DNA of 61,054 nt, counting the filler, from Dugesia japonica (Eukaryota): the NCBI GenBank assembly GCA_001938525.1. It is 5 parts of 5 records of this genome, joined end to end, with 100 filler letters (N's around TTAATTAATTAA, not from the genome) between each part and the next. Parts side by side here need not be neighbours in the genome. Positions count along the whole stretch, not along the records: positions 1 to 11,202 come from MQRL01617956.1; 4 more parts are not named here. One strand, 5' to 3'. A program made the translations under genes and the position numbers. The notes under the pieces were generated by a model. That model saw only the letters and a program-made list of their open reading frames with translations. It searched no databases and was not told the DNA's origin. Below, in pieces: positions 1 through 60,196 of the stretch. Within the stretch, counting starts at the first letter, position 1; each line of letters starts with the position of its first letter.

Positions 1-239
1 ACTTGATAGTCAAACGACAGGGCAGCCTGGCCGAACAAACTAAGGCTCTCACACAAGAGACACAGTTACTGTTGCAACGCAAAATAGATTTTTTGAAACA
101 ATATATTGCAGATCTCTCCCGTCAGCTAGGAAATCCTACATGGGTCCAATGTGACGATAATGACGACTCGGCGTCGTTCAACATTTTGACGACCGACTCC
201 GCCCAGTGGTTAGACCCGGGTGCATTAGATCTCATATGA
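1..239 (+). CDS. C-terminal part of an element-encoded coiled-coil/bZIP-like protein with acidic tail (paralogue of 58415-58834); truncated by window edge
   Basis: Aligns by eye to 58415-58834: QTKAL..E..LLQRKI(D/E)FLKQYIADLSRQ(L/I)GNP...QWLDPGALDL; AATAAA at 251 after the stop. Confidence 0.75.
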   Translation, partial: LIVKRQGSLAEQTKALTQETQLLLQRKIDFLKQYIADLSRQLGNPTWVQCDDNDDSASFNILTTDSAQWLDPGALDLI

Positions 240-299: not shown

Positions 300-490
300 G
301 ATAATAGGGAAAATAGTGAACCCAAATCCAAAGGCCTATGGGCGCGCACCTCCCATTAAGCGAGAGGTCAACCACAATAAGCTGAATACCTAACCTAGGG
401 GTGTTAGGTTAAATTCTTGAAAGGTTCCCCTGAGGACTGTTTTTCCCCAGCCACATTTTTTCTTCATCCTACTCAGGTGGAACCCCAACA
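300..490 (+). mobile_element. Structured terminus (copy A) of an unclassified repeated element, ending ...GGAACCCCAACA
   Basis: Reverse complement matches 58161-58350 and 11113-11202; similarity stops at the terminal CA in all three copies. Confidence 0.85.
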
Positions 491-884
491 CAATTAGTGC
501 TTCCAACAAACATAGCATAATTTGAACCATGGTCAATTAATTTTCCAACGAAAATCTCAAATATTAGATTTTTCAAATTCAAAGTATAAGTCTTGAAGGA
601 TATTAATATTAATATTGCCATGGGAACTTTTAATACTGATAGTAATATTGTCTGGAAAGTATTTAATGTTAATGTTACCATGGAGAAAATCACTTTCTAT
701 TAATTTTAGTTAATTTAAACAAGAAATAGGCTTTTCCGTGGATTTACATGAAGAAACTTAGAAAAAGTATTACTTATACTTAATTTAAACAAAGAATCAT
801 TTATTGCATTTAAGTTAAGCAAAATAGCATTTAAACAAAAAGTCAGTCAATTAAAACAAAAGTAATTATTACCTAATCGTTAGG

Positions 885-1040
885 TAATCATGGCGTCTTC
901 TTTGATGATTTTTACGTAATCAACGCACTCACAAACGTTCGATCAATTTGATTGCAGTATTACAGCCGCAATTACGTAATCACACACCTAAAATTGTTAA
1001 CCAATCAAAACGCTGAAAACATCTTACAACCAATATAATT
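885..1040. promoter_or_regulatory. Promoter-like motif cluster: two TTACGTAA palindromes, two CCAAT boxes and an ATGGCG core
   Basis: TTACGTAATCA at 912 and 972; CCAAT at 1001 and 1030; ATGGCG at 890. Confidence 0.3.
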
Positions 1041-3100
1041 CTAAACCAGAAAATTTTTCTACTTGGGAGGGGTTATTGGGGCAATGGGAAATTTTACTAA
1101 ATTTAGGAGAAACTTACTAAAATAAGAGTAAGTATACAATTTATCTGGAGAGTAGAATGGAGCAAGGATCAACAAATAAGAGTTATTCAATACAATGAAG
1201 CAAATTGGAAAACGTATCGAGACGAGAACGAACGTCTAAAGTAAAACCATGTGATCAAGAAATTGGAGGTAATCTTGGTAAATTGCGTGTGCCTTTACAC
1301 AAACATCTATATTCTGTTTGCGACAGAAGATTGGAATACGCAGATATGACCAAAAGATACAATTCAGAAAAAGAAACAATCCCAAATCAAAAAGAACAAG
1401 AAGATTTAGAAAATATTAGCTCTCAAGAGGTAAAAGATGATTTTACAAAATGTTCGACTAAAAGAGAGATAACGATTGGATCTGGAATAAGACACGTAAA
1501 TAAGTTGCTGGTTCCGTTTAGATTGAACAAATGAAGGGAACATATACAAAAAAGACGGATCAGTGACTTACACAACCGTACTCATTACTGGATACAGCAA
1601 AGTATCCAAATAAAAAGTGAGATAGTTGATACAAAAAGATTGATAATTAAAGATCAATAGAGGTAGAAACGAGATATTGATGAGATTAAAACAAAAATAA
1701 AAAAGAGTCAGTGAAAGATAAATATATTAGAAGCAACAATCAAGCGTATTAATGCGTCACGGATGCAAGATTAAGAACATATTTATCACGAGAGAACCCA
1801 ACAGTTGATAAAAGATGAGGTAAGAGCAGAAACTGAATTTCGGAAATGCAAAAAGGTTCACGAGGAAAGTCTGATAGCAATCCAGAATTTAGAAAAACAG
1901 GTCGAAGCAGAAAACAAGTGACTCAAAGAAACACCCATTACAGTAGTGTTATCTCACGGCAGAATAATGTCAATTAATCAATTTACATCTGAATAGCAAC
2001 TCCAAGACCATTGGAACCACAGATAAATTATTTAGCACAGAAAGCTCAAAAACAACAAATACAACCAAAACAGAACAAAATCCAGGCTTCGCCTTATTCG
2101 GAATCTGAGGAAGATCTTTTCTGGGGTGAATAAATTCAACCTTTTTTGTACAGATGTCAAAACAATACTAAATATAATATCTATTGATAATTTTCTTTGC
2201 GATTCGATGCCGCTTCTCAGTGTTATTATATTGAAATGTTAGAAACATTTTAAGAAACCCCCAACTGTCCCGTATTAAATTTCAGTAGTTCTAGGTTATA
2301 TTTCTCGTCAACAGAAGGTTCCAGAAACCGATATCCTACAGCCCTATGTTGCATCTTACCTTCTCTCGGCAGTTCTAAGCTGAACCCAATTGACAGTCTA
2401 TTAAATTATGGTAGTTTTTAGCTAGACTCAACCAATGGTCGATTCTCGTCTCTACGACAGAAGGCTCCAGAATCTAAATATTTATTGTAATTATTATGAT
2501 GAAAAGAGAAAATTATAATAAAAGTAAAAATTAAGACTTTGGGCAAAAAAAGAGTTAAAGACAATTGAGGAATTAAATTGTTGAATAGTACCTGAGGCAG
2601 TAATTTAAATGAAGGGGAGGCAGACTAATTAATACTAAGATTCACAATATATAATGTCTTTATAATTTACATTACTCGTTCTGGGANTACTATTAAACAT
2701 AGATTTTAAGGTCACAATAATTTCATTCTGATCAATTAGTTTAAATTCAAATTTAGAACCACGTCGAATATGTGACATAACATCCCATTGAGTGACTGAA
2801 GATTTAATTGATTTTTTGATTAAAGAAATTCTCTAGGTCTTTTCTGGAAGGGGATCCATTAATCTTCGTGAGTTGGTAGTTTCAAATACTAACTTTTGAG
2901 AATGTTTAAATGTTTCTGTACGGAAAATTCTAATTTGCCTCTTTGCTACTTCAATCGATTTGTATCGTTTAATATAATAAGAAAATAATATTCTTTTTTA
3001 ACTTTTATTTTTAAAATCAAATAAGTCATATCCAAATAATATTAATTGATTGAAATAACACCCATTGAAATCGACTCATGCCAACGGTAAATAAGTTGAT

Positions 3101-3600
3101 TTATACCAGTAATAAAGAATTCCCGTGTCCTGGATTCAATAAATTTTCAAGGACATTTTCAATAGTAAAATGATTTTTAAACATTTTGCCTTGCAAGAAG
3201 AGCCCAAAATGCTTATAAAAATAAAAATTGGTAGGTGAGAGGTGTGGCATTTTTGGTGGATGCTGCAAAATTTCGTACCTCAATACTTGCAGCTTTTTTG
3301 TGGCCGAGCATTGTAATGGAGAATAGTAGGACCTATCCTGATGATAGAATGTCGAACGAAAGTTATCCATTTCTTGGGGCTTCTTATCAACTCCCAGGAA
3401 ATATTTATCTTCTGTACCTTTTTCCAAGGAATCATAATGCCTCCAAGATACTACCAATCAGCGTGTTTAATCTTTTAGCAACGTTTTGGAAAGTTTTCGG
3501 TGGTCCAAACACTGTGCTGAGCGTTTGTAGCTGTCATATAAAAACCATTTTTTATCGCAGTTCACGATGCGATTGAGAAATGAATCATTCATGATCAACA
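3101..3600 (-). pseudogene. Degenerate mariner transposase, C-terminal half
   Basis: YEILQHPPKMPHLSPTNFYFYKH...FLQGKMF is a decayed HPPYSPDLAPSD motif; frameshifted. Confidence 0.85.
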
Positions 3601-4933
3601 AATGAACGCCGATTTCTTTGTTTTTAATTTGAGAGCCACAAACACTTACTATATTTATAAACCTCAGATTATCAAGTTTAACAATTTCATAAAGTTTAGC
3701 TGATAAAAGTAATGTATTTTATAGGTACCATTGCTTTAAATAAAAATTTCTCCAAACATAACTATCGGTATTTTATTCTTTTATGAATAACACTTAGAAA
3801 CATGTAGGCCAACGCAGTTGTGCATTATTCTTTTATCTTCAATATTAGAAATTATTTTCAAGTAATTGTCTTTTTTTCATTTTACCCTTGATTTAAAAAG
3901 CTTCTGTTGTATTTCAAGTATTCTTTCTAAAAAGAATGTTACAGTTTAATTCAAGTATGACATTGTACACATCGAAAATGGTAATTTAACCGGGAAAATA
4001 AAAGCTATATGAGAAAATTGTCAATTATAGGTGAACTCAAAACAAAATTGTGAGATGCATTCAATTAAATCATAACAAATTTTTGTCAATTTATTCAAAT
4101 CGATTGAAAAATATACATTTAATAAACAATAATTAATTTCAAAAATAAATGCAATCTTTATTACAAAAAAAAATACGAAAAAACTGACACACATAAAAAT
4201 AATTTATAAATCTACTGTCAACAGAAAGTAATAAATCCAAAAATAAAAATCTTAAATACATAAATATCTAAAAATAATTATCGGAAAATGAACGACTAGT
4301 TGGGAGTATAAATCCTGACCAAAAATTATTTTGATAAAAATAATAATTAATTATCATTAGTTTATAATTTTAATAAAAATTAAAATAATTAAATATATAT
4401 ATATAATCCCAACTAATCAAATAACAAAAGTCAAAGACCGATTTTAATTTTTCAATGATTTAAAATAAAAACAACACCATCATCACCTAATTCAAATTTT
4501 TTTCTCTTTCGTTTATGTTGAATATTGTTAAAAATAGTTTTAAAATCATAATCATAAAGTGATGAGATGTTCCTGAAAATGTTAAACTGAAACAAATTCT
4601 GAAAATAGTTTGCAACACAACAAACCTAAGAATAATAAATCAGCATACATTAAATACACACAAATATACACACACGCAAAAAACACACATAATTCCCATT
4701 TCAAACAAAAATGAGATACAATAAAAATACACAGCTCTATTTTTCACGTCTGTATTATCCTACTAACGCAAATCACATAAATAAAGCGCACAAAATAGAC
4801 AAATCTTAGTAATTAATAATAATAATAAATTACACGCAAACAGCTTCAAGCAAACCAATTTAACACATGTTTAAAGACAAAAGTAGAATTTTATAATTAT
4901 TTCTTGAAATTTNNNNNNNNNNGTGCAAGACAT

Positions 4934-7174
4934 TCAGCGCCTCATGTCGGTCATTCGTCGCCTAGGTTTAGCTAAATTGCTGTTTGTAAGTAGTTTAGCT
5001 TTAGGAATGGCTGAAAGAAAAAAACAAATGATTAAAAACAATTTAAATGAAAACAAATTAAAATTTGGTCACCATTTAAACTTTCTTCAGTGTTTTTCTT
5101 CAATCTTTCTGATATTTCTTTCAAACGATAATCTTGAGCGATCTGATTTCTTATATAGGCTTCTCGCCATGTTTCACCGTCACGTCTGTTTGCTGATTTG
5201 TGATTTTTTTTGAAAAGTTTTTCCCAGAAAAATTCGGTTTTTCTCTGGATTTTCTGAGAAAAACGGAAAAAATTAATTTCGATTAAAATTTTCCTGTTTT
5301 TATTAAAAATTTTAGTTAATTAATTTCATTCGGCTGATTTTATGCAGATTTTCCTAATTTATCAAAGAAAAAACCTTCATTTTATTACATAATAAAAATG
5401 TTAAATNNNNNNNNNNNNNNNNNNNNNNNNNNNNNNNNNNNNNNNNNNNTATTTTATAATCAAATAATTACCTTGCTTTCCCCATCAAAAGCTTTCAATT
5501 TCTCAAAATTAAATTGAGCGATTTCAGTTTCTAAAACTCCGTTTATCGTTCTGAGATTTTCTTCAACTGTATCATGTTTTACTATATTACTTTTTGGAGT
5601 CCATATTTTTCGTTCTGATGAGTATTTTGATGTACAATCGATATCTTCTTTAATTTCATAGTTGATATTATTTTCTTTCTTTTGTAGAATTAAATCTGTT
5701 CGATTATAAACTGATTGTTCGTCCATATCAGAATTCGATAATGAAGAATTTAATGCAGGTAAATCCGATAGTTCTGTTGGAGCGAAATGCGCTGGACTTT
5801 TCTTCAATTGTATATGTGGTTTTTTACTTTCAATATTATGAAAGTTCTCTGATTTTCTCTTTTTTCCTTGATTTTCAGCAGGTTTCGGCAAAGCACTGTC
5901 TTTAAGAAACGTTTCAAATGGCGTTACATTCTGCTTTATATCGGGTTTTCTTGATTTATTTTTATGCTGTTGGTCTGAATTTGAAAAGATTTTTACATTA
6001 GATGGTGGTTTTAATTCCGATGATTTGTCAACTGGGAATTTTTTATTGTCGATACTTATTTGATCACTTTTGATTGGCCTTTTGCTATCATCTTGAAAAA
6101 TATGTTTATCAGATTTTAACAAAAGATCACCTTTTATTTCATTTCTCACTTTATCAACCCTCCTTTTGTTATTTTTATTACTATTTTCATTAATTGGCAT
6201 TAGAAAATCTATTGTATCCATTTTTGAAGATTTCTTTCTACTTTCTTCGAGGCGTTGAAAGTGTGCCTCGTCACTATCTAAATCAGAATCATCACTTTCT
6301 TGTTTCATTTGCTTGTGAGTATATTTAGTAGAACTATCTGTTTTTTTCTGCACAACACTATGATTATATTCCTCGGAATTTTCATCATCGTACCGAACTT
6401 TTGAATTAATCTTATCTTCATGTTTTCTATCAGATTTTTTAGATGATTTTAGATTTTCGGCAAATTCATCACATTCATCAGAATCGATATCAACACTAGA
6501 AAAATCTGAATTGTCATTATTATTTCTATTTAATTTGATATGATTCATTTTACTGCTTTCTGAAGTTTTATTATGCAGCTGAAATTTTTTATTTATATTT
6601 TCATCAATGTCAGAATTATGATTTTCAAATTCTTTCCTATTATGATTTATTGGGTTTTCATTTTCACTTAGAGAGTCACTAGATGTTTGAATATCTGAAG
6701 CATGATCATTCTTTAATTTTTTATAATCACTATTTTTAGATTTATTTCTGTAAGCATATTCAGATTCACTTTCAGAAGAACTACGAGTTTGTTGAACCGG
6801 TTTATTTTCTGTATATTTTACTGATTTACTTGGTTTTACAACATCATGTTTATTTTTTTTCTCATTATCCTGAATCATTTCTGTCCACTCCTGGACTATT
6901 TTATTAGCTAATAAACCAGGTTTCCCTGGTAGTTTTGAACATTTTTTAACTGCTCTACCTATTCTTGACTCCTTCAAAACGTCAAGTGTCACACCAAGTT
7001 CTCGTATAGCTTTAAGTGTTCTATATTTCTGAATAATAATAATATTTTATAAAGGATTTTAAATTTGTAAAATGTAATTATTAAACTAATGTTAACTATT
7101 ACTTTATCCACTGATATTTCTTCTGAATTCAACTTATCAGAGAACTTTTGAAGAATCGTAATTAAATTACTCAT
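4934..7174 (-). CDS. ELOA: Elongin A-like transcription elongation factor (spliced)
   Basis: Exon 7174-7103 and exon 7028-5472 (74-nt GT-AG intron) give a TFIIS-N domain (VTLDVLKESRIGRAVKK...KIVQEW) and a long charged linker. Exon ~5254-5070 encodes FWEKLFKKNH...GETWREAYIR...RLKEISERLK (Elongin A domain). Last exon ~5011-4934. An exon may be hidden in the N-run at 5407-5449. Confidence 0.8.
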
Positions 7175-10004
7175 AACTTTAAAAATAAATATGCGAGTAT
7201 TTTAAAACAAATTTTTACACATAAACATTGTACGTATTTAATTTAAAATAGGATGTAATATTATTATTTTAAATGAAATTTTATAAAATGCAAAAATATT
7301 ACACTGTTATTTTTAAAAATTTTTGACCTGAAAAAGTTATTCAAATAGATATTTTAAAAAAATTTTATTATAATTAAAAATATTGAATACATTAATTTTA
7401 TGCTACTTGTGACTTTTATATTGCACATTTTAATTAAATATTTTTGTGTTAGCACGAAAAAATATAACAATAAAATTAATTTGTTGTATAGGGTGAATTT
7501 TAAAATAAAGTTATTAATTAATTACGGAAATAAAGTAATTTTTCCCGATGTATTACATCAGGCACATCAAACACAGTCCTAGAACGTCACATATCTTCTA
7601 ATAAATTACTAACTAGTTATAACTATTTACGAATGTGCTGTAATGAAATTATATGACGAAAATCAAATTTAAAATGAAAATTCATATTTAACTCTTGTAA
7701 TATCAAAAAAGGTTAAAGCATCAAGGAATGATTATATTTACAAACAACAGAAATCAGCAGTTCATTTACCGAAAATTAGAAGACATGAAAATCAACAAAA
7801 AAGCAAAATGTTTGAAGTGCCATAGTTATACTAATAATGTGTCTTGGCACTGTGGAAGCGTCTTTAACACACGTGTATAACAATAATTGTGTAATATTAT
7901 TCAAAAATCCTTATTTAAAAAATATGTCCACTTATGTTTACATAAATCTATACATGAACATGTGCCACGCGTTATTACATAATAACAAAATATTACAACA
8001 CTTTCTTACTCAAAAAATTTAATAATTATTTAAATTCAAAATCTAATAAAAAAAAGTTTACAAAATATTAGATTTTAAATTAAGTAAAAGTTTTTATTTC
8101 GAAATTAATTTTACATTAAAATAACAATTTACAGCAAAATATTAAATTTATTTACGAAAAATGTTAAGTGAAAATAAAAATTTTATTTACACAATTTAAA
8201 TAGTACAAATGTTTTTCACATGCATCGAAAATATATTCATTGTCAAAATTTTAAATATTTCCCCACTCATTAATAATTATTTCATCTTAAAACATTTATT
8301 ATTAAAGATTGTATTGATATTTTAATTAAATCTATTATTAAATTTTTGAAAAATAATTTTTAAAAATTTTTTGAAAAAAAAGCTTTTTCTTTAATGCATA
8401 CAGCTAAGGAATTTTAATTCAAGAAAATATTTAATTTTAAATAGAAAATATGTAACCAATTTCGAAATTTAATAAATGATTTTTCANAGACATTTTCAAA
8501 ATATACAAAAAAGTATAAATTTTTTTAAAAATATGATATTACATTTAAATTTAAAAATATTTTTAAAATATTAATTTTCACTCTAACTAGAATTTCACCT
8601 GGTAAAAATATATTACTTAAGTTCAAAATTAACGTTGTAAGTTTTATTTATTACATGACTTATCACTCAATCTAGAGATCTGTTTGAAATTCTACTTTGG
8701 CTGATTAATGTTTTTTAATTAAATGATAAATGAAAATTATCTTTTTAGCATTCATTAGAAAAATAGTGAGTATTTAATATTAGTAATGTAAAACTTAAAT
8801 GTCAATTTACTTATAATCATACTTTACAAGAAATCAGAAAGGGACTATGTAAGGTAGTTTAGTCTACTCAAATAATAAAGACTTCAAAAGAAATTAGGCA
8901 AATATTTCTTTAAATTCAACCATTTTAACTGTAAAAATATTTAATGTAAATAAGAGTCTGCCTTACCAATATTGCAAGTTTAACAATAAAAAATAACTTT
9001 ACTTTGAAATATACTCCAACTAAATAAGGCAAACTCCAAAGTTACGTGGGATACAAAATTTTATAACTTTTCTAATATAATTTAACTACTAAAGTTTCAT
9101 CGCGTCTATTTATGTGTTTCCATTGAAATTGCCTTTAAAATGCTATCGGTTGCTTCAATTATTTGGACATGATGTCCAAATATAGTGAATAAATATATTG
9201 AATAATAAAGTTTAATAAAATTAGCTTGATAAAACAAGCCTAATTTATTTTAATTGTTAAATTTAATTAAACAAGTTGTTTTATAATTTTTTAATAAATT
9301 AATTTTTTGTACTATATTTAGCTTTCCAAAACTTCTATTGAATTTATTTTAGACAATTTTTTTTTTAAGACTTTATTTTATTATAAAACTATAATTCGTG
9401 TCATTTTTCATTAAATTTTATATTTATTTTATATTTTATTAAAATATAGTAGTAGTGGAGCGAGTGATCAACCAATTTTTAAACAAAGGAATTTATAAGT
9501 GGATCGCGCAAGATGGAGGATAAGAAACTTTCTATCCAACTAGTAATAATAAACAAAAATTCCTGAAATCTTATCAATAAAATGAAATAAAGAAATTCAT
9601 TATCAAAAGAAAAAAATTTTAGTCAGCTGAACATGAGTACGATAATATTGATTATAACAATGTTGTTAGAACTAGCAAGAGCAACAAACGCAATAGTAGC
9701 GTATGACTGTAATGTTCCAAAGGGGAGACTAAAACATCCCAGAAGGTCTACCGTAGTGAACATTATTATTCCTAATTATTTACTATGGTTACCATGATCA
9801 GATCCCCCACTAGTTTTCTAACTAAATCTTCTGCCATTGATTTAGGAACGAATATCATTTCCATGAGCAACCACAATTATGATTAACCACATCAATACGA
9901 AGACCATTTGCATACCTGAACACTCCCATTATGGAATGAAGTCATCGTAACTAAGTTTAACAGACGTTGATAATGATTGTAACCACTGACAATTGTTTTT
10001 TTAG

Positions 10005-10185
10005 ATACATGCCCAGCTTTCCTCGTTTAATCTTCCGAATCATTCGACACGAGCGTGAGCTAGTTCGGCTCCGTAAATTGGTGTTACATATATTATATCC
10101 AGACAAAGCGGAATATCCCGATGAGACCAATCTGGCATGTCTCGTCAAGATGTTTCCCCTGAAACCGCCATCAAGTCATGATTAA
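10005..10185 (+). CDS. Small element-encoded protein, PDETxLxC-MFPL family (paralogue of 60024-60196)
   Basis: RIIRHERELVRLRKLVLHILYPDKAEYPDETNLACLVKMFPL aligns without gaps to the minus-strand translation at 60.0-60.2 kb; preceded by an acceptor-like TTTTTTTAG. Confidence 0.65.
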
Positions 10186-11112
10186 AGAAAATTTATGTCT
10201 TACTGTCTTAATAATAAGTGGGTAGATGTGAGTGAATCAACCGTTTGATCTACTGGTTATCGTGGATTTATTGATTAAAGAATTTTGATTTTTCATCGGA
10301 TCAAATTCAAAAATTTTTTTTGAAGTGCTTAAATCAAGGANNNNNNNNNNNNNNNNNNNNNNNNNNNNNNNNNNNNNNNNNNNNNNNNNNNNNNNNNNNN
10401 NNTTTTTTGAAGGTGTTGGGCTTCTAGGCTTTTGATGTTATTTTCTTTTCTTCTCTACTGATCGATTTTTCATCTTTTTAATTGAAATTTACGTCTGGGG
10501 GATGATACCTAGTAGCCGCAAGACGATAATTTGTATGATGCCTTCTCCTGCATCACGATCCCCCATTCCCGAATTCGGCGGGACTATGCGTTATCCCGTC
10601 TTATGAAACAAAATCTCTTTGAATTATCGTGGCTTCAGTGGCAAAAACTTTACATTGATGAGTTAAAGAGAAATGACAAGATTTAATTATAATCGAAAAA
10701 ATAACTACCAAAGTTTCAAGCAATAATAATACGATACTGATAATATTAAAAACTATAAAATGAATTCTGTTTATGTAATATATACAGGAACTAATCGATT
10801 ATTAATAGTAATTACATAGAAGCTAATAAAGTGCAATTTCAACTAAGATAAAAATATTAACAAAAAAAAAATTTCAAAGCTAAGAATGTTGACGAAAATA
10901 ATACTGATATAATCTAGTTTAAAATTCGTCGGTTCCAAGTTTAAATGAAGGTTATATTCAGAATGAACATACTAATAATTATCCTAATGATAATAATATA
11001 ACAACAGTAAAATTAACAACACCAATAATAATAATCAAGATATTAATAATGATAATAATACTAATGATAATAATAATAATCCTAATAATAATTATAATAA
11101 TAATAATATTAT

Positions 11113-11202
11113 TGTTGGGGTCCCACCTGAGTTGGAAAAGTGGCCGGGGAAAAAACAGCCCTTAGGGGAACCCTTTCAAGAATTTACCCTACCGTCCCTG
11201 TG
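11113..11202 (-). mobile_element. Terminus (copy B) of the same element, next to an (AAT)n-rich tract and cut by the scaffold end
   Basis: TGTTGGGGTCCCACCTGAGT...GGGGAAAAAACAGCCCTTAGGGGAACCCTTTCAAGAATTTACCCTACCGTCCCT matches copies A and C. Confidence 0.85.
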
Positions 11203-11302
11203 NNNNNNNNNNNNNNNNNNNNNNNNNNNNNNNNNNNNNNNNNNNNTTAATTAATTAANNNNNNNNNNNNNNNNNNNNNNNNNNNNNNNNNNNNNNNNNN
11301 NN
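11203..11302. other. Artificial scaffold linker N-TTAATTAATTAA-N
   Basis: Six-frame stop 12-mer centred in a 100-bp N block; recurs four times. Confidence 0.95.
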
Positions 11303-27049: not shown

Positions 27050-27340
27050 AAACCTTTTTTGAAAAAACATATAGCTAGGTAATTTTCTAAAAATTCAAGC
27101 AATTTGCTATTAAAATCATAGTAAGCATGCAATTTTTCTATAAAAAACATATTAGTGGAGCAATTTTTAATGTTAAATCTCAGTAGCGATGCAAGTTTTA
27201 ATAAAAAATCTCATTAGTGATGCAATTTTTAATCAAAAATCTTATTAGCGATGCGAGTTTTAATAAAAAATCTCATTAGCAAGGCAATGTTTCTATAAAA
27301 AACATATTAGCGTTGCCAATTTTCTAAAAAAACAAATAAG
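27050..27340. repeat. ~30-bp tandem array 2 (AAAAA(C/T)(A/C)T(A/C)TTAGCGATGCAATTTT)
   Basis: About 9 degenerate units. Confidence 0.75.
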
Positions 27341-27469
27341 CTCAGAACATCTATTTACAAAATGATAAAAACAGACAATTTTTCATAAAAATCATAAATT
27401 CATGGAACCTTTCCATATATAACTAATAAGTCTATATAAAAACTTATAAGGAAATATTTTTATGATTGT

Positions 27470-28530
27470 ATAGGGTGAATGAGTGTATTATTTACATAGT
27501 AACCGTGTAATATATGGTTTTTGAGTATAATATTTGCATTGTTACCTTGTATTATTTACATAGTAACCCTGTATTATAGTTTTTATGAGTATAAGTTTTA
27601 TGACTGTATAAGGTTTATAGGTGTGTGGAACATTTCCATATATAACTTAAATTTACTGTATAAATACCTTATAAGTGAATATTTTTATGAATGTTTAGTG
27701 TTTATGAGTATACTAATTGCATAGTTAGCTTGTATTATTTACATAGCAACCGTGTATTATTTACATAGTTTAATGAGTTTAAAGGTTTTATGAGAATATT
27801 TATTTGAATAGTTACCTTGTATTATTTACATAGTAACCGTGTATTAAAGGGTTTATGAGTGTATTATTTGCATAGTAAATGTGCAATATAAGGCTTATGA
27901 GGGTATTATTTGCATAGTTACCTTGCTTTATTTACCTTATAAGCTATATTAGAGTGACAATTTGTCCTAAATATCACTAAATATTACTCTAAAAATTACC
28001 TTAAACGCATATATAAAACTTATAAGTAAATTTGTTATGACTATATAGGGTTTATGAGTGTATTATTTACATAGTTAACTTACATTATCTACAAAATAAA
28101 AGTGTAATATAAGGTTTTCAGAGTATTATTTACCTAATTACTGAGTAATATAGTGTTTTCGAGTCTGTGAACTTTTCATAAATATATAACTTAAAATTAA
28201 TGTATAAAGTAATTTATATAGTAACCGTGTAATATAGGGTTTATTATTTACATAGTACCTTATATTATTTACATAACAACTGTATAATATAAGACTTATA
28301 AGGGAATTATTTACATATTAAACGTGTAATAAGGCTTATTCAGTTATTTGTACATAGTAACCATGTATTATAGGATTTATGAGTGTAATATTTGTATATT
28401 TACATTGTATTATTTACTTATCAACTATGTAATAAAGGTTTTATGGTTGTGTTATTTTTATAACAACCATGTATTATTCCCATATCAACTGTGCAATATA
28501 AGATCTATGGGGGTATTTTTTACATAGAAT
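27470..28530. repeat. Tandem array 3 (GTATTATTTACATAGTAACCGTGTAATAT...)
   Basis: Many ~20/40-bp units over about 1 kb. Confidence 0.85.
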
Positions 28531-28662
28531 AATTTGATCATCGTTTCATTATCTAGGTTTTCTTTAATTAATTAATAATAAATTACATTTGATATATTTG
28601 TTTTAACAAATCAATTAAATTAAATCCATCAAAACGCCAATGTTCCTCTTAAATCATCAACT

Positions 28663-30688: not shown

Positions 30689-32483
30689 AACAAACAGGAA
30701 ATTCAAGATGAAAAGATGGAAGATGCATATCCTGTCTAGGAAGACGATGGTGTTTGCTTTGAATATTAGGATAAAAAATATGAACATTATTATATGAAAC
30801 GTTTAATTTATTATTATTTTATTTAATTTTTATTTTAGAAGTAGCTCAACAGATATTGAATAACAGGTTTCCAGAATATTATTTCTATACAAATCTGTAT
30901 ACTCCATAGTCCCGCTGAACTCGAGGAAAATAAGTAAATAAACTAACGATGTGTAGCAAACATTTGCGAATTCTATGTTACCCTTTATACAAGTGTAGTG
31001 TAAAATGAGAAAGCTTAAGAACAATGTCAAAGTTAAAACTATTAAATAAATTATCTAACATCAAAAAGCCTGGAAAAAGCGTGTAATCCCAACACTAACT
31101 CTGATTGAGGTCAAACTATGAATTCCAATGAAATTGGAAACAAAATATGATACTAATACAAAATGAATTGACCCTTCCGTCAGTCATATTTGTAAAAAAA
31201 TTAATTATGTTTAATCAATTAACTAATACAGATTTATCACTCTTCAACTCATCTAACAAGTCGGTTTTTGTGTGTGTATTTTAAGACTATTCTGATATAT
31301 TTCATTCTAATCTATCAATATTTATTTCTACTTCTTATTCATCTCAAGAAATCAATAAAAAAATTGCATGGCTTAATATTTGCAAAAATCTAAATAAATG
31401 CTTTTGTGAAAATTACCTTTCAAATTTTTTCATATCATTAATTAACTGTGTTCGAATTAAATAACCCGAAGTATAATCTATAATATTGACATCTGAATCA
31501 CCCTAATTACCTTATGGAATGCAACTAAATCAATTTTTATTATCGTTTCATTTGTCATCAATTAAAATTAAATTTGACATAGTTTAATAAATTATAAGAT
31601 TTTCGATGAATTCTAATCTAATTTCAATTTCATGTTACTAATTTAAACCCGGAAAAAATATAAAAATGTCAATTAAAAATATGAAATAAGAATTCCGAAC
31701 CTTGGGAAGTTTTCAATGAATATAAAACTTGCTTTTATGTATTCTGTATGTGATTATTCAGAGTCTCTGTTTATCTTACTAACTGAGACCCAATAAAACC
31801 AGTACGCGTATGACACTAAGGACTCTGGAACAATTGGTCATTGAGTAGTCGATTAAATAGTGGAAGGATAGTGACGTACAAACAATGGAGATAAATAAAT
31901 TATTTTCACAACCAAGATTTATGATACTAATTGCTATCACTTTGCAATGGTTTCAAATTTTATATTTATTTTCTGTTCTGTTTATTTTAATGTTTTGAAA
32001 TATTCTGTCAAATGTTAGTAATTAGTACAATAAATAAAATTTACTTTGATTTGATCTGCTACGAAGAGGAATTTTAATTGGAAAATCGGTAAGCTGTAGT
32101 TGATTCAAAAGTTTTTATTTCTGTTTAAATCTATGAAAGCTATTCACAATTTGTCTGAAAACTCTTAAACTCAGAAGGGTTTTATATCGATTCCTTCCAC
32201 TTAAAGTCGTTATAAATATTATTAATTTTATACAAACCAATATTTAATTTCATAAAATATATCAAATAATTTAATTTTATAACTTTGTATTAAATAATTC
32301 TATCGAAAAATTTGTTTTAGTGTTTAAATGCTTAAAATATATATTTAGGAATTTAAGCCTTTTTTTAAATAATGGAATTATAAAATTATATTAAAATTAT
32401 AATAATAATAACAAAAAATATTATAAATTATTTACAAAAAAATGACGAATGTGACCATTGATAAATGGAACAAAATATAAAAA

Positions 32484-33799
32484 ATGATATTACAACGCAA
32501 ATTTACAATAAATTGTGATGTTAATGATAATTACAAATGTGGAATTTGCAAAAATGTCTTAATAAATGCACATCAAACTATTTGTGAATGCAATTTTTGT
32601 TATGAATGTATCAATCAATATATGGCTAATGGTGCTCTCAATTGTCCTAATAACGATGAAAAATGCAAATTGAAAAGTTTATCCAATATTACACCAAATC
32701 ATAAAATGAATAAATTAATTTTGAATCTAATGGTGCGATGTTCTAACAACATGTGCTCATATGAATGTCAATTAATAGAAATGGAAAATCATTTTAATTC
32801 ATGTTTAAACAAGTCTGTTAAATGTCCGTTTAATGATTTTAGTTGTGAACATGATGTGATCAATGATAAATTAAATTATCACAACACAATATTGATTGAT
32901 CTGGTTGAAAATTTGAGAAATGAAATGCGAGAATTGAAAGAGAAAATAGATGGGAATCGATTAGAAATTGAAATGTTGAAAGAGAATGATCGTATAAAAA
33001 ATGAAATAATGGAATCATTGAACGAAAAGTTCAAATTAATAAAAGTAAATAAAAATTTTATTGATTTAAAATTTTTATTTTGATTTAGCATGAAAATAAA
33101 GCTTTGGCACAACAAATAGAGATTGGTGAGGGGAATTTATGTACAAATTAGATGAGATCTATATTGAGATGAAGAGTAAACGCAAGAAAGAGGAATTATT
33201 GAAAGAATTTGACGAGAAATTCAAGATGGAAATGAATGCGAGATATTGTGATATGAAAGAAGTGATTAATGATGAAAATTCGATAATCAATGAGATTATT
33301 GATTCAGGAATGGAATGAGAAAATAGAGAAAATGAGAGAAGAGAATGAAAAATTAGATAATGAAAGATCAAATGAAATCGAAAAAATTAATAAATATTTG
33401 AATATGAGAGATGATGGAAGATTGGATTGGCAAATTGGTAAAATCAGTGAGATAAAATGGATGATGAGTGAATATTTCTATGACAAACAGAATCCATATG
33501 GAATGTATTTGGAAATGGAAAATATAAACAATGAATTGAATATTTGGTTGTGCATTTATTCTGGTGCATTTGATGATGATCTCAAATGGCCCTGTCAAGC
33601 TGATGTTGCAATTAATATTTCTGCAATGAATGATAATTGGGATATATCCAAAACAATAACAAAATCATGCTCAATAGCAAACCCAGAAAATATTTTGTCC
33701 AAATGTGAAGAACCAATCATATTTTCTCAATTTGATTGCACAGAATCAAATCTTAACAATATAAATTGCTCATTGGTTTGCATAGTAAAATTTAAATGA
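32484..33799 (+). pseudogene. TRAF-like gene (RING, TRAF zinc finger, coiled coil, MATH); apparently frameshifted
   Basis: CGICKNVLINAHQTICECNFCYEC...CP; C-terminal SEYFY...YGMYLEM...IYSGAFDDDLKWP (MATH); intron 33045-33088; in-frame stops at 33150-33290 while another frame is open there. Confidence 0.8.
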
Positions 33800-33959: not shown

Positions 33960-34059
33960 NNNNNNNNNNNNNNNNNNNNNNNNNNNNNNNNNNNNNNNNN
34001 NNNTTAATTAATTAANNNNNNNNNNNNNNNNNNNNNNNNNNNNNNNNNNNNNNNNNNNN
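33960..34059. other. Artificial scaffold linker
   Basis: TTAATTAATTAA at 34004-34015. Confidence 0.95.
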
Positions 34060-54064: not shown

Positions 54065-55586
54065 CTAGATTTATCAAACCCGTCAAATGGACGGGTTACA
54101 TAAATTTAGTGTTGATAAATCTAAAAACCTGAATATTTTATAGTATAAATTAATATTGAATATTAGTAATTGTACTTTGAGGGCGGATTACTCAATTTCA
54201 ATAAAATTTCAACATGTCAAAACAGGCAAAAAAGGGAATTTTTGAGTGAAAAAGGGTCAAAAACAAACCTTTTAGACTTTTCATTAATTTGACAGGGAAA
54301 AATCAAAATAATCAAATTAAAATAAAATTCAAATTTTCGCATCAAAATGAAAATTCTGATTGAGAAGTAAATTTGAAAAATCTCAAAAATTACCCACCAC
54401 TTCACAGAAAATAGATGAATGGAATTTTTTAAAACTTTCATAAAATTAAAATAATAAAAAATATGATGCAACTTGATACCAATTTAAAAAATAAAATAAG
54501 AGAAATTATAAATAAAAATATAGTTGTTTATTCAGAATATTATTATTTAACTAAAAAACATAATGATTTCTTTACTAGTTGTTTTTCAGAATATTATCAA
54601 TATATTTACTCATTATTAGCTTCTATAAAAAAAATAATAGGATTAATTTATAAAGAAAAATTTGTACATTTAGGTTTTGTTATTAGGTAGATAGTGGCGC
54701 ATTGCCAGCATTGACTTTTCATTGAAGACCCCCTCGGAGAAAAAAAAGTTAAATAAATAAAAATAAGAAAAAATAAAATAAAATTAATATCATATTTAAA
54801 ATTTGGTATAAAAAATTCATAGATATTTAAAAANAAGCTTAGAAATAAAAAACAAAAAAAACTGGCATAAAAATTTAAGGGAAATTAAAATACTGGCATA
54901 AATTTTAAAAGAAAAATCTAAACTGGCATAAATTTAAAAGAAATTAAAAAACAGGCATAAAATATGAAAGAAAATTAAAAAACTGGCATAAAAACATAAA
55001 AGAAATTAAAAAACGGGCATAAAATTTAAAAGAAATTAAGCTTTTATAATATTTATTTAAAAACATATTAACTAGTTAATTTGATTAAAATATTATATGA
55101 TTATTAAAAATAAATGTTCAATGCATGGAACATTTTAACCAATCAAAATAAAACATAAATTCTAAATCTCATTTATTTTCTCATTCACAATTTTTATTTT
55201 GATGCAAAAATTTGAAATTTAATTTAATTGCATTATTTTGTTTTTTCCTACTCAAATTAATGAAAAGTCGATTTTTCGTTCGTTTTGGAGATTAAAAAAC
55301 TTTAAAAATTTCATTAAACCTAAAAAAAGTTTGGAAATTGGTGACATTAAAAGCCCGGTTTTAGACCTTTTTTCACTCAAAAAGCCCCTTTTTTGCCTGT
55401 TTTGACATGTTGAACTTTTATTGAAATCGAGGGATCCGCCCTCAAAGTACAATTAATAATATTAAGCATATATAAAAGGTGTAAACATCTGAATTTTTTT
55501 TTCAAATAACTTCAAATTACGAGTATTCGTATGTTATGTTCATCGTTTAAACAATACCTGTCAAATTGACGGGTTCACTATACTAG
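54065..55586. mobile_element. Two oppositely oriented Helitron-like 3' ends forming a large inverted repeat around a ~30-bp minisatellite
   Basis: Hairpin ACC(C/T)GTCAAAT(T/G)GACGGGT ~9 nt from CTAG|T at both ends; 54165-54270 is the reverse complement of 55355-55460; AAACTGGCATAAA repeats at 54855-55040. Confidence 0.7.
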
Positions 55587-55765
55587 TAGTTTTTGTTGTA
55601 AAAGACAGTTTGCCTTTATTATCTTTCTATAACTGGTGTATGAATATAGAAAAGATTGTTGGATAGGAAGATATATGTTGTATACAAGTGAAATTATATG
55701 TATATATGAGTCCCANNNNNNNNNNNNNNNNNNNNNNNNNNNNNNNNNNNNNNNNNNNNNNNNNN

Positions 55766-56576
55766 AAAGAAAAATCTAAACTGGCATAAATTTAAAAGAA
55801 ATTTAAAAACAGGCATAAAATTTAAAAGAAAATTAAAAACTGGCATAAAAAAGTTANNNNNNNNNNNNNNNNNNNNNNNNNNNNNNNNNNNATTAAGCTT
55901 TTTATAATATTTATTTAAAAACATATTAACTAGTTAATTTGATTAAAATATTATATGATTACTAAAATTAAATGTTCCATGCATGGAACATTTTAACCAA
56001 TCAAAATCAAACATAAATTCTAAATTTCATTTATTTTCTCATTCAAAATTTTTATTTTGATGCAAAAATTTGAAATTTAATTTAATTGCATTATTTTGTT
56101 TTTTCCTACTCAAATTAATGAAAATTCGATTTTTCGTTGGTTTTGGAGGCTAAAAAACTTTAAAAATTACATTAAACCTCAAAAAATTTGAAAAATTGGT
56201 GATATTAAAAGCCTGGTTTTGGACCTTTTTTCACTCAAAAAGCCCCTTTTTGTCCAGTTTTGACATGTTGAACTTTTATTGAAATCGAGGGATCCGCCCT
56301 CAAAGTACAATTAATAATTTTAAGCATATACAAAAGGTTTAAACATCTGAATTTTCTTTTCAAATAACTTCAAATTACGAGTATTCGTATGTTATGTTCA
56401 TCATTTTAACAATACCTGTCAAATTGACGGGTTCACTATACTAGTAGGTTTTGTTGTAAAAGACAAAGTTTGCCTTTATTATCTTTCGATAACTGGTGTA
56501 TGAATATAGACAAGATTGTTGGATAGGAAGATATATGTTGTATACAAGTGAAATTATATGTATATATGAGTCCCAC
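55766..56576 (+). repeat. Tandem near-duplicate of ~54910-55714, including the Helitron-like end (CTAG 56441-56444) and its flank
   Basis: Colinear with scattered substitutions; separated by an N gap. Confidence 0.85.
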
Positions 56577-57830: not shown

Positions 57831-58414
57831 AATAAATATAAACCTTAGATTTGTGAATGTTGTTTGGCCTCTTCGATTTCAATTGAAAAACAACAATTTC
57901 AATATTCTTTTAATATCCAATTAATATAGTTTATTATCCTTTTGATATCCTTGTAATATTCTTATAATTCTTGGAATCAAATCGTCTTAACTGTAAATGA
58001 TTCAAATATATATAATGATAGAACATCCCCACAGTCTCCTGAATTTCAGGGAAATCTCCGAAAGGAATTTTATTTAAAATATCAATGTGATATTTGATTA
58101 AATATATTTGAATAATTTAATTTGATATATTAATTTTAATAATATATTAATCATTAATTATGTTGGGATCTCACCTGAGTTGAGTTACAAAAATGGTGGC
58201 TGGGGAAAAAACAGCCCTCAGGGGAACCTTTTCAAGAATTTAACCTACCGTCCCTTTGGTAGGTCTTCAGTTTATGGCGGTTGATCTTACTCTTAATGGA
58301 AGGTGCTCACCGATAAACCTTTAATTTCGGGTTCTATATTTTTCCCTATCATTATTATCCAAGAAAATAAATTACAACTCTGATTAAAAATATTTTTTTT
58401 AAGAGAAAACATAT

Positions 58415-58834
58415 TTAAAGTAAATCCAGTGCTCCCGGATCGAGCCATTGGTCTGGGTTCGTGGTTACAAAATTAAACGCAGCGATATCATCATCGTCAT
58501 CCCACTGCGTTATATTAGGATTGCCAATTTGCCTTGATAGGTCCGCAATGTATTGTTTTAAAAATTCAATTTTTCGCTGCAGCAATTGTTTATTTTCGAT
58601 TTCTAACGCCTTTGTCTGAATGGCGAGGTCGTTTTGTTTCTTTATGACTAAATCTAGTTTTTTTATCAACTGGTTTCGTTGGTCAAGGTGCTTCAATATA
58701 GCTTTGTCGGCTTTACGTTTCAGATGCCTTTCAAGAAGGAGGCGACGCAGAATGCGATGGCATCTCCTAAGGTTGTTGGGGAAAATAATTCGTGGCACTG
58801 AATGAAAAATATAGTTAAACTTGACAAGAATCAA
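58415..58834 (-). CDS. bZIP-like basic/coiled-coil protein with acidic-aromatic tail
   Basis: RRCHRILRRLLLERHLKRK, then heptads (KALEIENKQLLQRKIEFLKQ), then WDDDDD...WLDPGALDLL; paralogue at 1-239; likely splice acceptor TTTTTCATTCAG at ~58799, so the listed start is doubtful. Confidence 0.7.
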   Translation of the reverse strand: MILVKFNYIFHSVPRIIFPNNLRRCHRILRRLLLERHLKRKADKAILKHLDQRNQLIKKLDLVIKKQNDLAIQTKALEIENKQLLQRKIEFLKQYIADLSRQIGNPNITQWDDDDDIAAFNFVTTNPDQWLDPGALDLL

Positions 58835-58912: not shown

Positions 58913-59272
58913 TCAGGGGCGATTGGTCTGAGTCCCTTTGTCAATCAAGAGGGGTGGTAAAGGCATCGTGGCTCGTAACTTCACTATATTCTCGACGAGT
59001 TGGTTTTCACGCTCTTGGTAGGTTTTAGTAATTGTGGTAAAAGCTTCAACTTGTGCTTTCCATACCCTCTCTTGATTTTGGGTGTCGTCCATCTCTGCTT
59101 TAAACATCAGGAATTTCCGCTTATAGCGCTTCACTTTGGCTTCTGCCGCAGTGGTCTCTGCCTCCCACCGCCTTTTGGCTAATCTTTAAAGATCGTAAGT
59201 CATCTCGTTGTCATCATCATCTTCTCGTAATTTCTTATTTGGTGCCTGGGATCTATTTAAGGACGAATGCAC
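58913..59272 (-). pseudogene. Element-encoded coiled-coil protein with one in-frame TAA upstream of the listed ORF
   Basis: Frame extends to an acceptor-like TTTATTTCAG: ...LREDDDDNEMTYDL*RLAKRRWEAETTAAEAKVKRYKRKF...KGTQT. Confidence 0.5.
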
Positions 59273-59534
59273 TGAAATAAAAGTACGTTTAAGGTATTAA
59301 ATTTTGCCTGATATTGGCTAAATACTAGTAACATGGAGTAGATATGGTTACCCATATCATTAAATGAAAATTGGAAAGAATTCAATAGTCATAAATATTA
59401 TTTTAATTTTACAAGAAAATTTCATTTAAAAAAATCAATATTGCATCATTTTCCCAGTACATCGATTCACAAGAAAAGTTAAACATAGACGAAAATGAAA
59501 ACACCTATTTATTTCTAAAACAAACAACCAAAAA

Positions 59535-59891
59535 CTAGGATTGATTAATAGCAGTGTCGGTGTTAGGGGCAGTGTTTTCGATATCCGTTAACCCATTCGG
59601 ATCCCGGACTCCCCAGAGGAGATTAGCGATGAACGCTTGTATCGTCGGAGCTGGGGGAGGAGTGGTAGATTGATAGGAGAAGGAAGTCACAAGAGTACGA
59701 TCCGGCCTCGTCCATGCCTGATATCGTTGCCGCTCTGCAAAATCATTAATGCGGGCGACGGCTGCTTCGACCGGTGGTAAATTCAACCGGTCTACTAAGA
59801 TCCCGGCATCCCGATTGTGCGGGTTGTGATAACGGCGTAACATTAGTCGACGAGTTCTCCTATCGATTACGCGTATCCAAATGGAATCCAT
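59535..59891 (-). CDS. Element-encoded 118-aa hypothetical protein
   Basis: ATG start, GC-elevated relative to flanks, AATAAA downstream of the stop. Confidence 0.6.
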   Translation of the reverse strand: MDSIWIRVIDRRTRRLMLRRYHNPHNRDAGILVDRLNLPPVEAAVARINDFAERQRYQAWTRPDRTLVTSFSYQSTTPPPAPTIQAFIANLLWGVRDPNGLTDIENTAPNTDTAINQS

Positions 59892-60023: not shown

Positions 60024-60196
60024 TCATTCTTCATCTAAGTCGACTTTCCCGTCTAATGGGAACATTTCGGCGAAACAACACAAGTCCGTTTCGTCCGGTT
60101 GTTCTATTTTTCCACGAGTTAACAGGCAGGCTATTAATTGTTTCAAACGGGCTGCTTGTCTTTGTCGTTTTATCTTTCGTAGCACTTGATACAGTT
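60024..60196 (-). CDS. PDETxLxC-MFPL family protein; 5' part lost in N gap, absent from the ORF track
   Basis: LYQVLRKIKRQRQAARLKQLIACLLTRGKIEQPDETDLCCFAEMFPLDGKVDLDEE*, homologous to 10005-10185. Confidence 0.7.

What the first reader, a model, noticed from the sequence alone, without database searches (positions are those of the whole stretch)
380..490. Element terminus folds into conserved stems with a compensatory substitution
Seen: copy A has CCTAAC-loop-GTTAGG where copy C has CCTACC-loop-GGTAGG. The paired change keeps the stem while the loop differs. A second long stem, GGTTCC-CCTGAG...CTCAGG-T-GGAACC, encloses an inner GG(C/A)TG...C(A/G)GCC hairpin and ends ~6 nt from the terminus in A and B; it is weaker in C. 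Inference: a functional structured RNA or ssDNA signal (packaging/R-U5, replication origin or ncRNA scaffold). Evidence is one covarying pair from two copies.
Basis: partly seen in the sequence, partly recalled or inferred. Interest (0 to 1): 0.7.

Follow-up and report, generated by a model that had tools for sequence, protein, structure and literature searches.

The report
Conserved RNA fold at retrotransposon end
The last 190 bases of a very abundant jumping gene, probably from a flatworm, keep their base-paired hairpins while the letters change, as the ends of retrovirus-like elements are known to do, but this particular fold and the small genes beside it appear undescribed.

Summary
Three window copies (A to 490, B from 11113, C from 58161) end in CCCAACA, the integrase-recognition motif of LTR ends. 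A and C are saturated at synonymous sites of the adjacent ORF (pS 1.05, pN 0.23), yet the non-coding 305-490 domain is 78% identical. Hairpin 388-409 has an A-T pair in A, C-G in C and G-C in RNA reads of a diverged relative; those reads also swap G-C to A-T in the inner hairpin; a third hairpin (348-368) covaries too. Against: single copies fold no better than shuffles, the outer half of the long stem has no compensation and a rival partner, and no RNA end, primer site or second terminus was found. Best reading: the R/U5-side end of a long LTR of a Ty3/gypsy-type (possibly Burro-like) element of a planarian-like host, whose U3 side carries four small conserved orphan ORFs. Function in packaging or priming is inferred. 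No Rfam, Pfam or literature match. Known kind, new member.

The parts
305..490 (+). Copy A: conserved non-coding terminal domain
   Evidence: 148 of 190 columns identical to copy C, against 42 of 74 in the spacer 239-304
348..368 (+). Hairpin H1 (348-352 / 364-368), not in the original finding
   Evidence: Pair 352/364 is C-G in A and T-A in C; C's one mismatch (58285) is private, 93024 of 93179 depth in run X1 carries the pairing letter
388..409 (+).
   Evidence: Pair 393/404 A-T in A, C-G in C, G-C in the loose end of 52 RNA reads of X22; AGGG kept in the loop of all four versions
318..323 (+). GAACCC, rival partner for 423-427
   Evidence: Identical in A and C; chosen by RNAalifold on 300-489 and in the MFE of C, pair probability 0.5 in C and 0.0 in A
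423..484 (+). Long stem: outer P1a 423-428/479-484, inner P1b 429-434/472-477
   Evidence: P1b pair probability 0.93 in A, 0.89 in C; P1a 0.98 in A, 0.06 in C; CTCAG arm kept behind an unrelated linker in X22 reads; no two-sided change
435..452 (+). Inner hairpin H3
   Evidence: Second pair G-C in B and C, A-C mismatch in A, A-T in X22 (56 of 57 reads changed at 58215; 7+32+11 loose ends carry the partner T)
484..490 (+). Terminal CCCAACA, integrase att-like motif
   Evidence: Same 7 letters end A, B and C; fits YNYAACA of PMC3601003; chance 0.0017 at local composition
3..239 (+). 3' part of ORF3 in copy A (cut by window start)
   Evidence: 52 of 78 codons same residue as C; differences by codon position 28/13/53; pS 1.05, pN 0.23
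11113..11202 (-). Copy B, terminal 90 nt, cut by an assembly gap
   Evidence: blastn 78% to A, 82% to C
58161..58349 (-). Copy C terminal domain
   Evidence: Summed contig depth in X1 65.8 in the flank bin, 72303 / 127436 / 41241 in the three domain bins
58415..58802 (-). Copy C ORF3 (basic stretch, heptad-like stretch, acidic tail) behind an acceptor-like TTCAG at 58802-58798
   Evidence: no Pfam family above cut-off; splicing not shown
58913..59276 (-). Copy C ORF2, broken by one stop at 59188-59186, behind an acceptor-like TTCAG at 59276-59272 in the same phase as ORF3
   Evidence: likeness to other copies stops at 59279 (31 contigs in X1, 7 in X10)
59535..59891 (-). Copy C ORF1, 118 aa from ATG, orphan
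   Evidence: AlphaFold model unusable, pLDDT 44.7
60024..60196 (-). Copy C ORF0, 3' part, cut by a gap
   Evidence: 37% identical to the ORF at 10009-10185
10009..10188 (+). Fragment D: diverged ORF0 homolog of a fourth copy
   Evidence: tblastx E 3e-08, alignment

Best explanation
This is the downstream (R/U5-side) end of a long LTR of a Ty3/gypsy-type retrotransposon superfamily, in a host that is probably a triclad planarian; it may be the Burro group. Shown: a ~185-nt non-coding domain ends the element in CCCAACA, is under stronger constraint than synonymous sites, and keeps three hairpins through two-sided changes. Inferred: the last 7 bp act as DNA, as the integrase attachment site; the rest acts as RNA on the ORF-sense strand, where in the copy at the 5' end of the genomic transcript it folds (H1, H2, P1b enclosing H3) into the leader scaffold that capsid protein and reverse transcriptase recognise for packaging, dimer formation or primer loading. 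Only copies that fold are replicated, so pairs are kept between subfamilies, while inserted copies then decay by single uncompensated changes. The 1.9 kb or more upstream is a variable U3 side with four small ORFs, two of them behind same-phase acceptor-like sites.
For: Terminal motif equals the LTR consensus YNYAACA in 3 of 3 copies. Depth drops about 1000-fold outside the end in X1 (65.8 vs 72303) and about 80-fold in X10 (26.7 vs 2163). Domain 78% identical while pS is 1.05; PMC3601003 reports R and U5 more conserved than U3 and links this to stem-loops. Two-sided changes at three pairs, one with three pair types. The two one-sided changes shared between copies (P1a in B and C; H3 in B and 32 X22 reads) are G-U on the ORF strand and A-C on the other; RNAalifold -16.98 vs -14.53 kcal/mol. 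Burro elements have up to 25 kb inside and over 30 kb in all, accessory ORFs and thousands of copies (PMC6431247 section 7), which implies LTRs of kilobases.
Against: No second terminus, target-site duplication, gag/pol link, primer-binding site or polypurine tract in the window; the flank of A matches no 3' end found by text search of the planarian tRNA table. No AATAAA inside the domain (nearest in A at 251 and 289, none in the last 430 nt of C). RNA support is thin: 65 partial reads of 13.6 million in X22 and 7 of 10.5 million in X21, no place where many molecules begin or end, no splice joints, and more first mates on - (39) than + (17) in a library of unknown strandedness. Single copies are not more stable than shuffles. 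The covariation rests on four versions, one a consensus of read ends (agreement 0.73-0.85). TG...CA ends are also used by Ginger transposons, and the motif reads as a valid LTR start on the other strand.
Confidence: 0.6

Rival explanations
1. Same LTR end, but the fold is a regulatory response element (Rev/Rex/Rem- or CTE-like export signal, or TAR-like) read by one of the small basic proteins encoded just upstream or by a host export factor, balancing spliced and unspliced RNA.
For: All four ORFs have Arg/Lys-rich stretches; ORF3 is under purifying selection; two ORFs sit behind same-phase acceptor-like sites; RmRE and CTE are multi-stem RNAs overlapping the 3' LTR, CTE 234 nt (PMC12789967 passages).
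Against: No splicing seen in RNA; no homology of any ORF to known proteins; the retroviral examples read lie at the env/U3 side, not against the CA end; no binding evidence.
Confidence: 0.12
2. 3' end of a target-primed (LINE, SINE or Penelope-like) element: the fold is the 3' signal that the reverse transcriptase binds, and 5' truncation explains why the end is far deeper than the ORFs.
For: Domain bins are about 5 to 150 times deeper than ORF bins in X1; B sits next to an (AAT)n run; structured 3' ends of such elements are established knowledge (recalled).
Against: Exact CCCAACA end in 3 of 3 copies without poly(A) or repeat tail; no RT or endonuclease ORF in 2 kb upstream; no hammerhead or HDV ribozyme hit; depth peaks again in each ORF rather than falling steadily, which points to a likeness threshold, not truncation.
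Confidence: 0.1
3. Terminal inverted repeat of a Ginger-type DNA transposon and its miniature derivatives; the hairpins are palindromic protein sites or ssDNA folds.
For: Ginger ends are TG...CA (PMC6839031; PMC3601003); the excess depth of the end would fit miniature derivatives; flanks are AT-rich 6-mers.
Against: Three different pair types at one position and shared G-U-type changes on one strand suit RNA better than a double-stranded protein site; no transposase in the window copies; no inverted partner end near any copy.
Confidence: 0.07
4. The orientation is reversed: TGTTGGG is the start of the LTR (U3 side), the ORFs are antisense, and the fold works on the other strand.
For: TGTTGGG fits TGTTRNR; 39 vs 17 X22 first mates could mean more RNA of that strand if the library is stranded; A folds slightly better on that strand (z -1.69).
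Against: Shared one-sided changes would be A-C mismatches on that strand; U3 is the least conserved LTR part; acceptor-like sites and ORFs point toward the CA end.
Confidence: 0.06
5. No selected structure: short inverted repeats were corrected by template switching during replication and the rest is sequence conservation of protein-binding motifs.
For: Folding z-scores near zero; P1a and P1b show no two-sided change and are broken in B and C; A itself breaks H3.
Against: Two-sided changes at three separate hairpins with diverged loops; P1b arms survive complete turnover of the linker; 0 of 300 shuffles.
Confidence: 0.05

Closest known systems
R-U5 region and att site of Metaviridae/retroviral LTRs (PMC3601003; passages read)
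   Same: YNYAACA end; short conserved terminal part after a long variable part; conservation tied to stem-loops
   Different: No AATAAA or GT-rich stretch in the domain; U3/R/U5 borders not mapped; four ORFs on the putative U3 side
Burro giant gypsy-like retrotransposons of Schmidtea mediterranea (PMC6431247, section 7 read)
   Same: Probable host group, very high copy number, kilobase LTRs implied, accessory ORFs
   Different: No sequence comparison was possible; no gag, pol, BIR, MATH or env domain is linked to these copies; the original paper was not held
RmRE of MMTV and CTE of MPMV (PMC12789967; passages read)
   Same: About 200-nt multi-stem RNA at an LTR, next to small basic accessory ORFs (RmRE case)
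   Different: Those overlap env and the start of the 3' LTR; no Rfam match; no export function tested
Ginger1/Ginger2 DNA transposons (PMC6839031; passages read)
   Same: TG...CA termini
   Different: No transposase or inverted second end seen; covariation suggests single-stranded pairing
TRIM non-autonomous LTR elements of tapeworms (PMC4558846; search listing and start of abstract only)
   Same: Flatworm LTR-type ends at high copy number without gag-pol nearby
   Different: Those are small; this unit is at least 2 kb and carries conserved ORFs

Membership tests
LTR retrotransposon (Ty3/gypsy) LTR | 3' end motif YNYAACA | tested here: met
   CCCAACA in 3 of 3 copies
LTR retrotransposon (Ty3/gypsy) LTR | 5' end TGTTRNR and 4-6 bp target-site duplication | not testable with these tools
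   All copies are cut by the window edge or by gaps; no genome held
LTR retrotransposon (Ty3/gypsy) LTR | Direct repeat flanking gag-pol | not testable with these tools
   RT/RNase H fragments at 49545-50579 are 7.6 kb from C with no shown link
LTR retrotransposon (Ty3/gypsy) LTR | Primer-binding site behind a 5' LTR | tested here: inconclusive
   No flank starts with TGG; no tRNA 3' end matched A's flank in text searches of the table; solo and 3' LTRs have none, so absence does not decide
LTR retrotransposon (Ty3/gypsy) LTR | Transcription start and poly(A) site defining R | tested here: inconclusive
   No pile of read ends; 72 partial reads in two RNA runs; AATAAA only upstream of the domain
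Burro | Sequence identity to Burro LTR, or link to the giant polyprotein ORF | not testable with these tools
Conserved structured RNA | Two-sided base changes beyond chance | tested here: met
   Three pairs, one with three pair types; few versions, no tree-aware test
Conserved structured RNA | Statistically significant covariation in a deep alignment | not testable with these tools
   No further loci obtained; one search showed 40 of 526 variant rows
Known Rfam family (ribozyme, IRES, export or packaging element) | Score at or above gathering threshold | tested here: not met
   0 hits in the window; best E 0.8 and 1.7
Ginger DNA transposon | Terminal inverted repeats and integrase-like transposase | tested here: inconclusive
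   TG/CA end fits; neither transposase nor paired end found in the window
Helitron | Hairpin followed by CTRR end, inserted between A and T (features recalled) | tested here: not met
   End is CAACA, next flank letters C, A, T
Rev/Rex/Rem-type response element | Binding by an element-encoded protein and export of unspliced RNA | not testable with these tools
   Only basic stretches and acceptor-like sites seen

The most novel reading that the evidence does not exclude
An invertebrate giant retrotransposon lineage has evolved, independently of lentiviruses and deltaretroviruses, a complex-retrovirus control circuit: a set of small spliced accessory proteins encoded inside the LTR, one of which binds this switchable terminal RNA (two mutually exclusive pairings of 423-447) to govern export or transcription of the genomic RNA.
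Probability: 0.1. Interest if true: 0.8.

Novelty: new member of a known kind. Interest (0 to 1): 0.42.

Why it matters
Structured R-U5 regions are expected in LTR elements, so the stems alone are no surprise. What is useful: a very abundant repeat of a regeneration model offers a deep natural alignment on which the fold can be proven by computation alone; the domain is a marker that ties together subfamilies whose coding parts have diverged to synonymous saturation; and it sits beside four conserved orphan ORFs with acceptor-like sites, which hints at a complex-retrovirus style of regulation in an invertebrate element.

Tried and rejected
Rfam: nothing at gathering score, weak hits at E 0.8-8 are chance. 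tRNA/SINE head: none in the window. Hammerhead core: the CUGA-like letters differ among A, B and C and no GAAA follows (by eye). Telomere-repeat origin of H2: only A's arms resemble it. Primer site in A's flank: no match by text search in the planarian tRNA table of PMC7962491; one file and the figure PDF could not be searched. Protein relatives of ORF3: the 2 hits among 1.84 billion representatives are summed weak matches to DUF7507 repeats; the large protein database query could not be made; Atlas gave no usable hit for ORF3 and leads under 0.85 for ORF1. More loci: 0 DNA matches in viral and metagenome contigs; 590, 239 and 143 pattern hits, none confirmed. ORF1 structure: pLDDT 44.7, not searched further. 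Earlier scan notes: nothing in 4 look-ups. The apparent two-sided change at 307-313/441-447 depends on how T and C runs are aligned, and the one at 333-337/365-369 includes C's private letter; neither was counted. The bacterial promoter scan is irrelevant.

Full report
Setting. The window is an AT-rich eukaryotic scaffold (GC 0.15-0.37 per 2 kb) with many gaps, several flanked by (AAT)n. It holds a RING/zf-TRAF/MATH gene, a TFIIS-N-domain ORF and gypsy-type RT/RNase H fragments. TRAF/MATH genes are expanded in planarians (PMC6109357, passages) and planarian genomes are over 70% AT (PMC11410931, passages). I infer a triclad flatworm; this is not proven. No whole genome was held.

The observation. 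blastn of 1-700 finds two more copies: B at 11113-11199 and C from 58584 down to about 58150, both on the minus strand. All three end in CCCAACA, at 490, 11113 and 58161, followed by different AT-rich flanks. Hairpin H2 (388-394/403-409) has A-T at 393/404 in A and C-G in C. In 300 column shuffles of the A/C alignment none gave a shared Watson-Crick hairpin of 6 bp or more with a two-sided change; the shuffle ignores local clustering, so this is a rough control. Single copies fold no better than shuffles (z -0.63; z +0.03, -0.64 and +1.16 for A, C and B on the ORF strand).

Constraint. A and C are old relatives. Over 78 codons of the ORF that ends at 239, pS is 1.05 (saturated), pN 0.23, with differences 28/13/53 by codon position. 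The AT-rich spacer is 42 of 74 identical, but 305-490 is 148 of 190 identical. The non-coding domain is therefore held by selection, and it is about 185 nt long, larger than the finding.

Copies outside the window. I laid two contig sets (X1; X10, which bears another organism label) and two RNA runs (X21, X22) on copy C at 80% likeness. Summed depth in X1 is 65.8 in the flank bin, 72303, 127436 and 41241 over the domain, about 800 to 8700 over ORFs and down to tens in spacers; X10 has the same shape. The tool warns this is no copy number, but it fixes the terminus and shows the domain is the most widely shared part. In X22, 65 reads of a diverged relative match only a 42-nt core. Their loose end on one side (52 reads, agreement 0.75), read on the element strand, has H2 arms CCTAGC/GCTAGG: a third pair type, G-C, at the same position. 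In the inner hairpin 56 of 57 reads change 58215, and the loose ends of 7, 32 and 11 reads carry the complementary change at the partner: G-C becomes A-T. Behind a linker unrelated to A, B or C, the CTCAG arm of the long stem returns. A third hairpin, H1 (348-352/364-368), has C-G in A and T-A in C; C's one mismatch there is private, since 93024 of 93179 depth in X1 has the pairing letter. Limits: the read-end sequences are consensus strings; 486 variant rows and 860 loose ends were not shown; four versions are not a tree-aware test.

What is not supported. The outer half of the long stem (423-428/479-484) has no compensation, pair probability 0.98 in A but 0.06 in C, and a rival partner, GAACCC at 318-323, identical in A and C. 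Upstream GGGAAAA (307-313) can also pair with the H3 loop. The domain may have two conformers, or the terminal letters may be constrained only as the att site. RNA evidence is weak: no place where many molecules begin or end, no splice joint, first mates 17 on + and 39 on -.

What the element is. CCCAACA fits the integrase-recognition consensus YNYAACA of LTRs, where R and U5 are more conserved than U3 and conservation is linked to stem-loops (PMC3601003, passages); chance at local composition is 0.0017. Upstream of the domain, C carries at least 1.9 kb with four short co-oriented ORFs separated by AT-rich spacers; ORF2 has one stop. ORF2 and ORF3 each begin behind a T-rich TTCAG in the same phase, and likeness among copies stops at 59279, three letters from one of them. 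A fourth fragment at 10009-10185 is 37% identical to ORF0. None of the ORFs has a family or relative. A long variable ORF-bearing part, then a short conserved structured part, then CA is the layout of an LTR read from U3 to U5. Burro elements have up to 25 kb inside, over 30 kb in all, accessory ORFs and thousands of copies (PMC6431247, section 7), so they are the obvious candidate, but no sequence test was possible and the original paper with its extended data, which may show these LTRs, was not held. No primer site, second end or duplication was found; text searches of the planarian tRNA table gave no match to A's flank.

Mechanism. Shown: conservation, three covarying pairs, att-like end. 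Inferred from retroelement biology: the last bases serve integrase as DNA; the rest folds on the ORF strand in the leader of the genomic RNA and is read during packaging, dimer formation or priming. The strand call rests on two shared one-sided changes that are G-U on that strand and on RNAalifold -16.98 vs -14.53, which is weak. The boldest rival is a Rev/Rem-like response element (PMC12789967, passages). Target-primed 3' signal, Ginger inverted repeat (PMC6839031, passages), reversed orientation and no function are less likely.

Novelty. Rfam has no match. Five literature searches listed no paper on an RNA structure in planarian LTRs; the library lacks most subscription papers and Repbase. 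Earlier scan notes held nothing. Passages of PMC13524379, PMC13238120 and PMC8797187 were read and did not bear on the question. Verdict: a real, selected fold; a new member of a known kind; interest 0.42.

Noticed in passing
window 9634-9770 (+): A signal-peptide-like stretch ending in AIVAYDC lies about 240 nt upstream of the ORF0 homolog of fragment D; it recalls the start of viral/retroelement glycoproteins (recalled), but Pfam gave no hit.
   Followed up: partly
window 1150-2130 (+): A decayed reading frame of about 320 codons, charged and coiled-coil-like, follows copy A after a 650-nt leader with repeated CCATGG units; if A were a 5' LTR this would be its first internal ORF. No Pfam hit.
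   Followed up: partly
window 490-501 and 58160-58149: The flanks of A and C agree at 9 of 12 letters past the terminus; either an AT-rich target preference or chance.
   Followed up: partly
window 397-400, 428-431, 445-447: AGGG in the H2 loop is kept in all four versions and is complementary to CCCT in the long stem and to the C run of the H3 loop; a loop-loop or pseudoknot contact is possible, without variation to test it.
   Followed up: no
window 11247-11258, 24319-24330, 34004-34015, 50755-50766: Four 12-letter islands between pairs of 44-N gaps; the one read (11247-11258) has stops in all frames: an assembly linker, not biology.
   Followed up: partly
window 32481-33799 (+): TRAF-like gene (RING, zf-TRAF, coiled coil, MATH) in two ORFs.
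   Followed up: no
window 5460-7046 (-): 528-aa ORF with a TFIIS-N domain and a weak Elongin A hit downstream: probable Elongin A exon.
   Followed up: no
window 49545-50579 (-): Broken gypsy-type RT and RNase H fragments.
   Followed up: no
window 43446-44688 (+), 17159-17590 (+), 3230-3620 (-): Transposase-like remnants by eye (hAT-like, mariner-like; recalled) and a weak Ulp1 protease hit.
   Followed up: no
window 27112-28540 and 54849-56199: Degenerate minisatellites (31/62 and 22/42/64 nt units) and an 858-nt spaced near-duplicate of 300 nt.
   Followed up: no
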